A stretch of DNA of 35,602 nt, taken from Eledone cirrhosa (taxonomy: Eukaryota). The position numbers were made by a program, and so were the translations under genes. Numbering within the stretch: the first letter of the stretch is position 1; each line of letters begins with the position of its first letter. The stretch lies in contig CAXHJY010001572.1 of assembly GCA_964016885.1 (NCBI GenBank), forward strand, positions 1 to 35,602, in the 5' to 3' direction. Below are positions 7,230 to 28,357 of the stretch, piece by piece. The notes under the pieces were generated by a model. It saw only the letters and a list, made by a program, of their open reading frames with translations. It was not told the origin of the DNA and searched no databases.

Positions 7230-9546
7230 TTAACGCTTAGAAGAGGGCCTACTGACTCTAAGTTAACTTTGAACGTAGGGAAGGCAGGTCTTCTGAATTA
7301 CTGCATAGCGCCAAAGATCTCGGTCCAGTGACATTGTCTTAGAGAGATATAAGTGTGCAAGGTCAGTTTTTATCACCTCGTCCCAGGTTTTTCTGTGTCT
7401 ACCTACTCCGTAACTTCCACCCTGCACTTTTTTATACAGCTATCATCCTTCAAGAAGGCGGGTCTTTTGTATTACTGCGTAGCACCAAAGATCTCGGTCC
7501 AGTAACATTGTCTTAGAGAGGCGTAAGTGTGTAAGGTCGGATTTTATCACCTTGTCCCAGGTTTTTCTGGGTCTACCTACTCCGTATCTTCCATCACCCT
7601 GCACTTTTTTATACAGCTGACATCCTTCAAGAAGGCGGGTCTTTTGTATTACTGTGTAGCACCAAAGATCTCGGTCCAGTGACATTGTCTTAGAGAGATA
7701 TAAGTGTGCAAGGTCAGTTTTTATCACCTCGTCCCAGGTTTTTCTGTGTCTACCTACTCCGTAACTTCCACCCTGCACTTTTTTATACAGCTGTCATCCT
7801 TTTGTATTACTGTGTAGCACCAAAGATCTCGGTCCAGTGACATTGTCTTAGAGAGGTGTAAGTGTGTAAGGTCGGATTTTATCACCTCGTCCAAGGTTTT
7901 TCTGGGTCTACCTACCCCGTAGCTTCCATCACCCTACACTATTTTATACAGCTGTCATCCTTCAAGAAGGTGGGTCTTTTGTATTACTGTGTAGCACCAA
8001 AGATCTCGGTCCAGAGACATTGTCTTAGAGAGATGTAAGTGTGCAAGGTCGGATTTTATCACCTTGTCCCAGGTTTTTCTGTGTCTACCTACTCCGTAGC
8101 TTCCATCACCCTACACTATTTTATACAGCTGTCATCCTTCAAGAAGGTGGGTCTTTTGTATTACTGTGTAGCACCAAAGATCTCGGTCCAGTGACATTGT
8201 CTTAGAGAGGTGTAAGTGTGTAAGGTCGGATTTTATCACCTCGTCCAAGGTTTTTCTGGGTCTACCTACTCCGTAGCTTCCATCACCCTACACTTTTTTA
8301 TACAGCTGTCATCCTTTTGAATTACTGTGTAGCACCAAAGATCTCGGTCCAGTGACATTGTCTTAGAGAGATATAAGTGTGCAAGGTCAGTTTTTATCAC
8401 CTCGTCCCAGGTTTTTCTGTGTCTACCTACTCCGTAACTTCCACCCTGCACTTTTTTATACAGCTGACATCCTTCAAGAAGGCAGGTCTTTTGAATTACT
8501 GTGTAGCACCAAAGATCTCGGTCCAGTGACATTGTCTTAGAGAGATATAAGTGTGCAAGGTCAGTTTTTATCACCTCGTCCCAGGTTTTTCTGGGTCTAC
8601 CTACTCCGTATCTTCCATCACCCTGCACTATTTTATACAGCTGACATCCTTCAAGAAGGCGGGTCTTTTGTATTACTGTGTAGCACCAAAGATCTCGGTC
8701 CAGTGACATTGTCTTAGAGAGGTGTAAGTGTGCAAGGTCAGTTTTTATCACCTTGTCCCAGGTTTTTCTGGATCTACCTACTCCGTAGCTTCCATCACCC
8801 TGCACTTTTTTATACAGCTGACATCCTTCAAGAAGGCAGGTCTTTTGTATTATTGTGTAGCACCAAAGATCTCGGTCCAGAGACATTGTCTTAGAGAGGT
8901 GTAAGTGTGTAAGGTCGGATTTTATCACCTCGTCCAAGGTTTTTCTGGGTCTACCTACTCCGTAGCTTCCATCACCCTACACTTTTTTATACAGCTGTCA
9001 TCCTTTTGTATTACTGTGTAGCACCAAAGATCTCGGTCCAGTGACATTGTCTTAGAGAGATATAAGTGTGCAAGGTCAGTTTTTATCACCTCGTCCAAGG
9101 TTTTTCTGGGTCTACCTACTCCGTAGCTTCCATCACCCTACACTATTTTATACAGCTGACATCCTTCAAGAAGGCAGGTCTTTTGTATTACTGTGTAGCA
9201 CCAAAGATCTCGGTCCAGAGACATTGTCTTAGAGAGGTGTAAGTGTGTAAGGTCGGATTTTATCACCTCGTCCAAGGTTTTTCTGTGTCTACCTACTCCG
9301 TAACTTCCACCCTGCACTATTTTATACAGCTGACATCCTTCAAGAAGGCAGGTCTTTTGTATTACTGCGTAGCACCAAAGATCTCGGTCCAGTAACATTG
9401 TCTTAGAGAGGCGTAAGTGTGTAAGGTCGGATTTTATCACCTCGTCCAAGGTTTTTCTGGGTCTACCTACTCCGTAGCTTCCATCAATTTTGATCGCCCT
9501 ACACTTTTATATACAGCTGTCGTCTCTCATACACATCACATATGAC
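7230..9546 (-). mobile_element. RTE-clade LINE ORF C-terminal fragment, tandemly amplified
   Basis: Minus-strand translation VMCMRDDSCI*KCRAIKIDGSYGVGRPRKT(W/L)DEVIK.DL..L.LSKTMSLDRDLWRYAVIQKTCLPYVQS* fits the RTE C-terminal GHVxRM...GRPRKTW...D...L...DR..WR pattern. Confidence 0.85.
7281..9486. repeat. Tandem array of 13 units of 177/174/161/158 bp derived from the RTE ORF end
   Basis: Marker AAGATCTCGGTCC at 7314, 7488, 7665, 7823, 8000, 8177, 8338, 8512, 8689, 8866, 9027, 9204, 9378. Confidence 0.96.
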
Positions 9547-9579
9547 AAAAAAAGTACATTACTGGGAAGGATCAATAGA

Positions 9580-9783
9580 CTTTTGTCAAATCGGACCGAG
9601 GAAACAATGTTTCCGTTGGTCTTTCCAATTGCTAATACTATCTATCGGTCGCAACTCCATGTAGAAGGAGCAACGTGAAATAAAGAGTCTTGCTCAAGGA
9701 CATAACGCTTCACCTGGTCCAGGAATCGAACTCACAACCTCAAGATTACGAATCCAATTCTTTAACCAATCAGCCACACACCT
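9580..9783 (-). mobile_element. tRNA-CORE SINE, family B
   Basis: Minus strand has A box TGGCTGATTGG, B box GAGTTCGATTC and CORE-like TGTCCTTGAGCAAGACTCTTTATTTCACGTTGCTCC; the body matches 31991-32095. Confidence 0.82.
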
Positions 9784-9842
9784 TTACAGTACATTACTAG
9801 AAATCCCGTGAAATGACAAAGATGGAAAGTCAATTAAATCAA

Positions 9843-10527
9843 CCCAGTGTATTACTGGTACTTTATTTTATCAACCCCGTCATAACTGTTTCTACTTTTG
9901 GGGGCACAAGGCCAGCAATTATCCCAGTGTATTACTGGTACTTTATTTTATCAACCCTGTAATAACTGTTTCTACTTTTGGGGACACAAGGCCAGCAATT
10001 ACCCCAGTGTATTACTGGTACTTTATTTTATCAACCCCGTAATAAATGTTTCTACTTTTGGGGGCACAAGGCCAGCAATTATCCCAGTGTATTACTGGTA
10101 CTTTATTTTATCAACCCTGTAATAACTGTTTCTACTTTTGGGGGCACAAGGCCAGCAATTACCCCAGTGTATTACTGGTACTTTATTTTATCAACCCTGT
10201 AATAACTGTTTCTACTTTTGGGGACACAAGGCCAGCAATTACCCCAGTGTATTACTGGTACTTTATTTTATCGACCCTGTAATAATTGTTTCTACTTTTG
10301 GGGTCACAAGGCCAGCAATTACCCCAGTGTATTACTGGTACTTTATTTTATCGACCCTGTAATAATTGTTTCTACTTTTGGGGGCACAAGGCCAGCAATT
10401 ACCCCAGTGTATTACTGGTACTTTATTTTATCGACCCTGTAATAACTGTTTCTACTTTTGGGGACACAAGGCCAGCAATTACCCCAGTGTATTACTGGTA
10501 CTTTATTTTATCAACCCTGTAATAATT
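9843..10527 (-). repeat. 80-bp tandem array (about 8.5 units) made of the 3' half of SINE family C
   Basis: Unit CCCAGTGTATTACTGGTACTTTATTTTATC(A/G)ACCC...TTTCTACTTTTGGGGGCACAAGGCCAGCAATTA closely matches the reverse complement of 28561-28638. Confidence 0.94.
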
Positions 10528-10574
10528 ATGAAAGGTAAAGAATTATTATAATTGATGGGAAATTGAGCTGTTGT

Positions 10575-26716: not shown

Positions 26717-27315
26717 AATAAGGGCGCTGCGGAGTTGCAAATGGGTTACATATGAAAAAAGTTTGTGCTTCATCAGTGATCTTCCAACCATCATAGGCAT
26801 TTCATCGCTTTAAAGACCATATACCTCCGTTTGGTGCGAGCAACGGCTAAAAAAAGTCGTTGGGACACGTAAATAAAGGGGACGCGAGGGTAAACAAACA
26901 AAGATGGTGAAGCAACAGAAAGTGAAGAAGAAGGAGACAAGTCCCAAATTTCTATGAATTTAAATTCGGTGGAATCGTGAACGAGAGAATAAAGACCATC
27001 AAACCTGGTTGAAATGTGAGCAAGGAAGGAATTTCGCACAGGTCTAACGGGAGGAAGAAGGGGTCTGGTCTGCGAATTCAGTAAACATAAGTTCTGTGAA
27101 ATCGTTTCGTTTCTGAATTTGTTTAGCAAGATTCTTTATCTGAAAACGTGTGTTGAAACCAATATTGTTATACTTTGGGAGGGTCATGTTGCCAATAAGA
27201 AACACACGCACCAGATGCTTTCACTTCAATTTATTATAATAAATTTATAAATTTAGGAATTTATAAATTTCCGGTTGGTTGGTTGGTTCCACAACCAGAT
27301 GGTTGTTTATATATT

Positions 27316-27358
27316 GTCAAAGTTCTTTCGTCACACATTCTGTGACCTCTTCAGTGAC
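27316..27358 (-). ncRNA. Minimal type I hammerhead ribozyme-like motif
   Basis: Minus strand GTCA-CTGAAGA-G-GTCAC-AGAATGT-GTGAC-GAAA-GAAC-TT-TGAC: core CUGANGA and GAAA, 5-bp stem II, stem I GTCA/TGAC, UH site, very short stem III. Confidence 0.62.
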
Positions 27359-27512
27359 TGGGGGTTCTTTTCTTTGTTTTTTGTGCCTCTCCTTTGTTCT
27401 GTCCTACGCCATCTTGTTTTTGTGTGTGTGCTGTGTGCTGTGCTTAGTTTGCGCATGCGTTACATCCGGGTGTCTGTGTATGTTTATATTCGTTTATCTA
27501 TTTGTTTATTTC

Positions 27513-27835
27513 CATGTTACTGGTTGGTTGTTTGTTCTATGTGTGTGTGTGTTTTCATTTTGTCCTTAATTGTAAGTTGTGATGTTGCTGTTCCACTCAT
27601 GTTTTCTATTTAATTTTGGTTGTAATTCATTTATGTTTATTGCCTCTGTGATTTGTCTAAACATTATCTAAACAAAAGACGCAATGTTTAGACAAATCAC
27701 AGAGGCAATAAACATAAATGAAATACAACCAAAATTAAATAAAAAACATGAGTGGAACAGCAACATCACAACTTACAATTAAGGACAAAATGAAAACACA
27801 CACACACATAGAACAAACAACCAACCAGTAACATG
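27513..27835. repeat. 153-bp inverted repeat with 17-bp spacer
   Basis: Arms 27513-27665 and 27683-27835; about two mismatches seen. Confidence 0.95.
27675..27782 (+). pseudogene. GIY-YIG endonuclease C-terminal fragment (inverted arm of the Penelope-like element)
   Basis: KDAMFRQITEAININEIQPKLNKKHEWNSNITTYN* fits the R.I.EA..I....P.LN...E pattern. Confidence 0.7.
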
Positions 27836-27923
27836 TTGTATTGTATATCTACGCCATATACACGACCACATTACAGCGTGGACTGTGTATTTTTTTATAT
27901 ATATGTATATATATATATATGAG

Positions 27924-28357
27924 CAAGGCCAGCAATTACCTCCGTGTATTACTGGTATTTTATTTTATCGACCCTGTAATAATTGTTTCAACTTTAGGCA
28001 CAAGGCCAGCAATTTCCCCAGTGTATTACTGGTACTTTATTTTATCAACCCCGTAATAACTCTTTCTACTTTAGGCACAAGGCCAGCAATTACCCCAGTG
28101 TATTACTGGTACTTTATTTTATCAACCCCGTAATAACTCTTTCTACTTTAGGCACAAGGCCAGCAATTACCCCAGTGTATTACTGGTACTTTATTTTATC
28201 AACCCCGTAATAACTGTTTCTACTTTTGGGGGCACAAGGCCAGCAAATACCCCAGTGTATTACTGGTACTTTATTTTATCAACCCCGTAATAACTGTTTC
28301 TACTTTTGGGGGCACAAGGCCAGCAATTAACCCAGTGTATTACTGGTACTTTATTTT
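27924..28357 (-). repeat. Second array of the SINE C 3'-half repeat, 78/80-bp units, about 5.5 copies
   Basis: Same unit as 9843-10527; first units have TTTAGGCACAAGG, later ones TTTTGGGGGCACAAGG. Confidence 0.92.

What the first reader, a model, noticed from the sequence alone, without database searches (positions are those of the whole stretch)
7230..28357. Repeated conversion of retroelement fragments into homogeneous satellites
Seen: at least four unrelated arrays have monomers that are sub-fragments of retroelements: 177 bp (RTE ORF end), 99 bp (a different RTE ORF end), 80 bp (SINE C 3' half) and 49 bp (SINE A interior). The RTE and SINE A arrays run into un-amplified parent sequence at their edges. 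Unit junctions show short microhomologies (for example TTA for the 80-mer and CACTGTAAA for the 49-mer). Inference: a general process here, such as microhomology-mediated circle formation with rolling-circle reinsertion, or template slippage, amplifies 50-180 bp segments regardless of origin.
Basis: partly seen in the sequence, partly recalled or inferred. Interest (0 to 1): 0.7.

Follow-up and report, generated by a model that had tools for sequence, protein, structure and literature searches.

The report
Minisatellites spreading between jumping-gene copies
The tandem arrays here are pieces of common jumping genes repeated head to tail, the same arrays recur at many places on this animal's small chromosomes, and they likely grow in place by unequal recombination and likely pass between neighbouring jumping-gene copies during DNA repair, a variant of a process known in humans, flies and reptiles.

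Summary
The arrays are real and derive from dispersed elements; so do the unlisted 108- and 96-mers. They are not four independent local conversions. Only the 177-mer looks private. The 99-mer junction occurs 1,511 times genome-wide. The 49-mer is a built-in SINE repeat: 3,365 multi-unit versus 22,557 single-unit copies. Array density is 281/Mb here, 150/Mb on the smallest chromosome, C27, and 6.5/Mb on C1-C4, so the window is typical of a small-chromosome domain. Microhomology is not general: 14 junctions outside one SINE family average 0.86 bp against 0.80 by chance. Most 99-mer arrays sit in register in their parent element, which argues against circle reinsertion as their origin. Unrelated RTE insertions 0.6 Mb apart share derived units, and the 80-mer array ends in a different SINE subfamily than its units. 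Best reading: seeding inside elements, growth by unequal exchange, spread by ectopic gene conversion (inferred). Close to squamate SINE-derived satellites and Drosophila Rsp-like spread. The scan noted this before on other DNA of this genome.

The parts
6455..7130 (-). SINE A copy, 5'-truncated, with 49-bp array 6558-7110 (11 units)
7230..7279 (-). RTE-A parent, 3' of the array (ORF end and start of 3' UTR)
   Evidence: compared with L007, L008, L012
7280..9486 (-). 177-bp array (units 158-177 bp) inside an RTE-A copy; junction found only here
9487..9524 (-). RTE-A parent 5' of the array; keeps the 10 bp that the other units lack
9822..9843 (-). 3' flank of the 80-mer array, from the older undeleted SINE C type (18 of 22 matches versus 5 of 22 for the type that makes the units)
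9843..10525 (-). 80-bp array of the 3' half of deletion-type SINE C, with a 3-base insertion shared with C27 locus L296
12351..13140 (-). full SINE A copy with 49-bp array 12471-12969 (10 units)
13229..13921 (+). full SINE A copy with 49-bp array 13400-13801 (8 units), inverted relative to its neighbour
15108..16714 (+). 108-bp array from a dispersed repeat of unknown class; no parent flank here; 15 units less 2 bases
16712..18583 (+). 99-bp array from RTE-B ORF end; joined to the 108-mer through 3 shared bases; shares unit variants with C27 arrays
18584..18625 (+). RTE-B parent 3' of the array, then truncated
18626..18664 (+). parent of the 96-mer (AT-rich element that starts with TTAA; MITE-like by recall)
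18665..22792 (+). 96-bp array; each unit joins two separate pieces of that element
27924..28358 (-). array of three 77-bp and two 80-bp SINE C units, no parent flank
28447..28637 (+). single un-amplified deletion-type SINE C
32160..34810 (-). full SINE A copy with 49-bp array 32275-34638 (48 units)

Best explanation
These are transposon-derived minisatellites that recur in the same register across small chromosomes and distal domains, likely seeded inside element copies, likely expanded after insertion by unequal exchange, and likely passed between nearby homologous copies by ectopic gene conversion. Shown: parentage, recurrence, regional clustering, expansion younger than insertion for several arrays, and shared derived units between unrelated insertions. 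Inferred: (1) seed: a built-in direct repeat or a two-unit source element (SINE A), or a rare one-off duplication (177-mer); (2) growth: repeated unequal exchange or slippage by one or several units; (3) spread: a break in one element copy is repaired from a nearby array of the same family, importing the junction and adjacent units while the recipient keeps its own flanks; later deletions or template switches butt arrays together (108|99|96). No function is indicated.
For: In register: 20 of 27 junction-bearing 99-mer loci run into parent at the 3' end (4 more just under the cut-off), 11 of 27 at both ends. Younger than insertion: array consensus differs from the family by 8-9 of 99 bases in L034, L048, L060 while units differ from their own consensus by 1.3%, 1.6%, 5.6%. 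Stepwise growth: deletion variants of the 177-mer recur at units 3, 7, 10 and 1, 6, 10, 12; the two 49-mer unit types are interleaved. Regional: 2 of 34 5'-intact junction loci lie on C1-C4, 54% of the genome (p=3e-9), 9 lie in C15:30-39 Mb, 5 in C27:17.6-21.1 Mb, although the parent is not rarer on C1-C4 (12 hits in 77 blocks versus 1 in 54 on C8-C27); SINE C-type arrays 0 on C1-C4 (100 single copies) versus 7 TRF rows in 4 C27 blocks (24 single copies). Transfer: L323 and L324 (C6, 0.63 Mb apart) differ at 27 of 148 bases of 3' parent, like unrelated copies (mean 18%), yet share a unit with the same 10-bp deletion, seen in no other locus held; L327 shares five variants with L329/L330 despite unrelated flanks; window, L033, L297, L300 all carry the variants C45 and T88; same-chromosome pairs share 0.67 variants versus 0.22, permutation p=0.013, window and L329 left out; the 80-mer array ends in an older SINE type than its units.
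Against: The family consensus came from hits to a window query, so it leans towards the window. The tree of 37 RTE-B copies is star-like, so it neither shows nor excludes a source subfamily; copies that begin inside a unit, old diverged dimers, and the in-frame periods 99, 111, 123 fit a duplicated source element too. Conversion and circle-templated repair leave the same sequence record. L297 and L300 have no parent flank, and the window's 108-mer is within 2-5 bases of a whole number of units. Recombination rates were not measured; the contig is unplaced. An automatic edge-phase test on 149 arrays was noisy: fewer than half fell near an integer unit number.
Confidence: 0.62

Rival explanations
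1. Microhomology-mediated circles form from any 50-180 bp piece, amplify by rolling circle and reinsert.
For: Orphan arrays exist (L297, L300, window 108-mer and 27924 array). The 108-mer starts in a phase other than the parent-bound arrays and is 15 units less 2 bases, the pattern Sproul et al. (PMC7403614, passages) link to circle reintegration; chance about 5-10% for one array. L300's array joins another RTE through 4 shared bases.
Against: Junction microhomology is at chance outside the SINE A family; most 99-mer arrays are in register in a parent; units are not identical and variants repeat in blocks.
Confidence: 0.13
2. The junctions were carried by source elements that already held the duplication and were spread by retrotransposition; only the later expansion is regional.
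For: True for SINE A: 13% of copies have two or more units, and by eye only 5 of the first 100 listed have the first-unit type of single-unit copies. For RTE-B, recurrent periods 99, 111, 123 keep the frame while singletons 89 and 94 do not; some dimers begin inside a unit or have very diverged units.
Against: Junction-bearing RTE-B copies, dimers included, avoid C1-C4; array bearers are not a clade; neighbouring insertions share derived units but not flanks.
Confidence: 0.15
3. Each array arose independently in place by slippage at sequence-determined hot spots, with no exchange between loci.
For: L034, L048, L060, L321, L336, L338 carry private variants, also in their terminal units; the 177-mer is private; SINE A has a 9-bp built-in repeat.
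Against: The 99-bp junction has only 2 bp of homology and no unusual fold (z=-0.78); shared derived indels and variant sets between loci; the two-piece 96-mer recurs at dozens of places.
Confidence: 0.08
4. Assembly artefact of an unplaced contig.
For: The window is a whole 35.6-kb unplaced contig with 81% tandem repeat and fold-backs.
Against: The same families and densities occur on chromosome-scale C27, C26, C20, C6; units carry structured variants.
Confidence: 0.02

Closest known systems
SINE-derived satellites (sSat1-3) of squamate reptiles, Vassetzky et al. 2023, PMC10702118 (read: abstract, sections 18 and 19, passages)
   Same: Many loci; units are parts of a SINE; terminal units run into the parent; a few variants dominate; long arrays prefer subtelomeric regions while the parent is evenly spread.
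TE-derived human minisatellites, Ahmed and Liang 2012, PMC3389668 (read: abstract and passages); Jurka and Gentles 2006 and Haber and Louis 1998 only as cited there
   Same: Arrays from Alu, LTR and other elements, expanded locally after insertion; only 300 of 7,276 flanked by 5-20 bp direct repeats; some carried by source elements (LTR12).
   Different: No genomic hot spots were seen in human; here density differs about 23-fold between chromosome classes.
Rsp-like spread into 1.688 clusters in Drosophila simulans clade, Sproul et al. 2020, PMC7403614 (read: passages)
   Same: A repeat spreads to new loci through homology with an abundant dispersed repeat, by interlocus gene conversion or eccDNA; hybrid junctions with short microhomology.
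   Different: There the landing sites are satellite clusters; here they are single copies of the array's own parent element.
Review of TE-to-tandem-repeat cases, Zattera and Bruschi 2022 (authors recalled), PMC9659126 (read: passages)
   Same: Lists SINE-, LINE- and MITE-derived mini- and satellites in many taxa.
   Different: Mostly single families per species; no octopod case among the passages seen.

Membership tests
TE-derived minisatellite/satellite | Head-to-tail units homologous to part of a dispersed element | tested here: met
   11 of 11 TRF array rows in the window have 19-289 non-array homologues in loci held
TE-derived minisatellite/satellite | Terminal units continue into the parent element | tested here: met
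   177 and 49 both sides; 99 and 96 one side; 108 and 27924 array neither
TE-derived minisatellite/satellite | Copy-number variation between alleles or individuals | not tested
Haber-Louis minisatellite (5-10 bp flanking direct repeats) | Short direct repeat bounding the unit in the parent | tested here: not met
   Met for the 49-mer (9 bp) only; 80-mer 3, 99-mer 2, 177-mer 0; 1 of 14 non-SINE-A junctions reaches 3 bp
Squamate-type SINE-derived satellite | Multi-locus family with subtelomeric bias | tested here: inconclusive
   Multi-locus met. 96-mer hits lie in the last 5.5 Mb of C27 and near ends of C7, C22, C23, C24, C26, but arrays occur along all of C27; the contig is unplaced, no telomere repeat
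eccDNA rolling-circle insertion | Array at a site unrelated to the parent, whole number of units, near-identical units | tested here: inconclusive
   Not met for 177, 49, 99; roughly met for the 108-mer
eccDNA rolling-circle insertion | Circles detected physically | not testable with these tools
   No eccDNA data
RTE-clade LINE (parents of 177 and 99) | Reverse transcriptase ORF of a non-LTR element | tested here: met
   RTE-A parent: RVT_1 and PHD. RTE-B: only the ORF end was held, no RT domain scanned
RTE-clade LINE (parents of 177 and 99) | RT phylogeny within the RTE clade | not tested
tRNA-derived SINE (A and C) | tRNA-like head with A and B boxes, simple-repeat tail, many dispersed full copies | tested here: inconclusive
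   Fixed 5' end, simple-repeat tail and over 25,000 copies for SINE A; A/B boxes seen by eye; ARAGORN calls no tRNA; named SINE superfamily not tested

The most novel reading that the evidence does not exclude
Tandem arrays are contagious among transposon copies: in certain multi-megabase domains and on small chromosomes an array converts neighbouring single copies of its parent element into new arrays, so several unrelated LINE, SINE and MITE families each run their own local epidemic, while the giant chromosomes, with as many parent copies, stay nearly free. The arrays then map where ectopic repair happens in this genome.
Probability: 0.45. Interest if true: 0.62.

Novelty: new variant of a known kind. 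Interest (0 to 1): 0.4.

Why it matters
How minisatellites start and why one unit turns up at many loci is open: known models explained 6% of human TE-derived cases (PMC3389668, abstract). This genome holds hundreds of arrays whose parent, junction and neighbours can all be read, with a strong contrast between chromosome classes, so conversion, circle reinsertion and source-element inheritance can be told apart by a census. It also bears on genome size and on why small chromosomes and contigs like this one stay unplaced. No host function is shown.

Tried and rejected
Automatic edge-phase test: too noisy, it missed arrays known by eye to have intact flanks; replaced by parent-aware tests. DNA fold of the RTE-B segment: not unusual (z=-0.78), so a hairpin hot spot was dropped. 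RTE-B tree: star-like, no starred branch; the window, L032, L034, L050 and flankless arrays were not in it. Search for an allelic copy of the contig with 12012-12340: only a 60-bp repeat matched. Telomere repeat: none. The four SINE A copies as local duplicates: their flanks differ. In one search, 37 clusters had at least 4 parents, 18 failed the fit or flank filters (among them the 49, 80, 96 and 108 clusters), 19 were counted: 5 of 19 reach 3 bp (p=0.008), 4 of them SINE A family; removing that family's 5 rows was decided after seeing the result. Flanks of other 177-type hits were not examined. Literature: 7 searches listed no paper on octopod TE-derived minisatellites; the library lacks most subscription journals.
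Full report
Setting. The window is the whole of unplaced contig C1599 of a 3.0-Gb animal genome with four chromosomes of 379-443 Mb and many of 22-137 Mb. Its SINEs and AT microsatellites resemble those of octopods; that is recall, not a call. Tandem repeats cover 81% of it, against 27% of 100 random 10-kb blocks.

Observation. All named arrays are present at the stated places. The 177- and 99-mers come from the ORF ends of two different retroelements; the first parent has a reverse transcriptase and a PHD finger. 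The 49-mer lies inside four SINE A copies with different flanks, and the 80/77-mers are the 3' half of SINE C, whose single copy stands at 28447-28637.

Is the region special? Arrays with period 35-300 bp, at least 5 copies and 85% matches: 10 in the window (281/Mb); 5 in 77 blocks of C1-C4 (6.5/Mb); 3 in 9 blocks of C5-C7 and C28; 20 in 34 blocks of C8-C26 (59/Mb); 30 in 20 blocks of C27 (150/Mb), 13 of them in the 5 blocks from 17 Mb on; zinc-finger-like arrays were left out of the class counts. The first 100 blocks were random; the 40 on C19-C27 were evenly spaced by hand. So the window is far above the giant chromosomes and at the level of distal C27, which holds the same families. Parent density does not explain this: SINE C is about as dense on C1-C4 as on C27 (130 versus 120/Mb) and RTE-B is not rarer there. 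Element origin is about what element content predicts: 22 of 30 C27 arrays versus 175 of 300 random pieces (p=0.07), 11 of 20 versus 125 of 300 on other small chromosomes; the window's 10 of 10 come from only six families.

Are the arrays independent? The 177 junction was spanned by no hit outside the window among 40 scored candidates. The 99 junction, as an exact 19-mer, occurs 1,511 times with 0 for the reversed control; only 17 of these, at 6 places, are on C1-C4. The same RTE segment also gives 111-, 123-, 94- and 89-bp periods. For SINE A, 24 of 29 copies picked by their tail have one unit (7 of the 24 from one macro-array); genome-wide 22,557 have one and 3,365 two or more, and the latter mostly start with a unit type that single copies lack, so a two-unit subfamily transposed as such. 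Both unit types are interleaved in three of the window's four arrays.

Microhomology. From parent consensus sequences, 19 distinct junctions passed the filters; 5 reach 3 bp (p=0.008), four of them in the SINE A family, whose body has built-in direct repeats. The other 14 average 0.86 bp against 0.80 for random cuts (family removed after seeing the result). In the window: 9 bp (49-mer), 3 (80-mer, SINE tail against an internal TTA), 2 (99-mer), 0 (177-mer). Imperfect matches of 4 of 5 and 6 of 8 bases at RTE-B junctions were seen by eye and not tested.

Growth. Of 27 junction-bearing RTE-B loci, 20 run into parent at the 3' end and 11 at both ends. Several array consensuses differ from the family by 8-9% while their units differ by 1-6%, so expansion came long after insertion and at the DNA level (inferred). 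In the 177 array all 12 units differ and a 16-bp and a 3-bp deletion recur at spaced positions, which fits stepwise multi-unit exchange, not one pass round a monomer circle.

Spread. Junction-bearing copies with an intact 5' side number 34 by exact pattern (a lower bound): 2 on C1-C4, 9 in C15:30-39 Mb, 6 on C27 (p=3e-9). On C6, L323 and L324 are different insertions (27 of 148 differences in 3' parent; mean of 91 pairs 18%) that share a unit with one 10-bp deletion; L327 shares five variants with L329/L330, which are themselves duplicates. The window's 99-mer shares two variants with all three C27 arrays held. Same-chromosome arrays share more variants than others (16 in 24 pairs versus 25 in 112, p=0.013; window and L329 left out, one CpG-type variant dropped). 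In the window, the 80-mer array's units are of the deletion-type SINE C but its 3' flank is of the older type (18 of 22 versus 5 of 22 matches), and its 3-base insertion recurs in L296 on C27 and in two units at 27924. I read these as copying of array pieces into homologous element copies, most simply ectopic gene conversion; a circle could be the template. L297, L300 and the window's 108-mer have no parent flank and join other sequence through 3-4 shared bases or none; the 108-mer is 15 units less 2 bases, weak support for circles.

Against. The family consensus is biased towards the window query; the tree has no resolution; old dimers and in-frame periods allow a duplicated source element for RTE-B; many arrays carry only private variants; samples are small (1.4 Mb); recombination and eccDNA were not measured.

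Comparison. Squamate SINE-derived satellites match in anatomy and distal bias. Human TE-derived minisatellites match in origin and in the rarity of flanking repeats. Rsp-like in Drosophila matches the spread by interlocus conversion or eccDNA. A review lists SINE, LINE and MITE cases. What differs here is that several unrelated element families behave so at once, the contrast between chromosome classes, and base-level traces of transfer into single element copies. Four unreviewed notes of this scan describe the same behaviour on other DNA of this genome; two gave the squamate paper as a lead, none is counted as support.

Verdict. Observation confirmed, interpretation partly supported. New variant of a known kind; interest 0.4.

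Noticed in passing
window 27513-27835: Fold-back palindrome of about 320 bp, 95% self-complementary.
   Followed up: no
window 25129-25411 and 27105-27344: One repeat present twice, one copy rearranged into a direct and an inverted piece.
   Followed up: no
window 1-5970, 10668-12010, 23034-24925: About 6 kb of AT-based repeat grading into a 67-bp AT-rich unit, and 1-2 kb (CAC)n/(GTG)n tracts.
   Followed up: no
L032-L060, L085, L092: Recurrent RTE-B periods 99, 111, 123 and the 177-mer are multiples of three; singletons 89 and 94 are not. Unexplained; chance about 1 in 27 for the three recurrent ones.
   Followed up: partly
L292:5024-10000 (C27): 77-bp unit x63 that translates to a zinc-finger-like peptide out of frame; 84-bp zinc-finger-like arrays in L281 and L288.
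   Followed up: partly
G000:C20:6.11-6.23 Mb (L243-L255): The 108-mer forms arrays over about 120 kb.
   Followed up: no
G000:C2:402.83-402.85 Mb (L063-L068, L077): Near-identical SINE A copies repeated at one position of a 56-bp satellite.
   Followed up: no
L073, L084, L234, L283, L290, L300, L315 and others: A 72-bp family, 15 arrays among loci held, often beside 108- and 96-mers; absent from the window.
   Followed up: no
L134, L170, L317: Random 10-kb blocks wholly filled by 45-51 bp arrays without a parent in the loci held.
   Followed up: no
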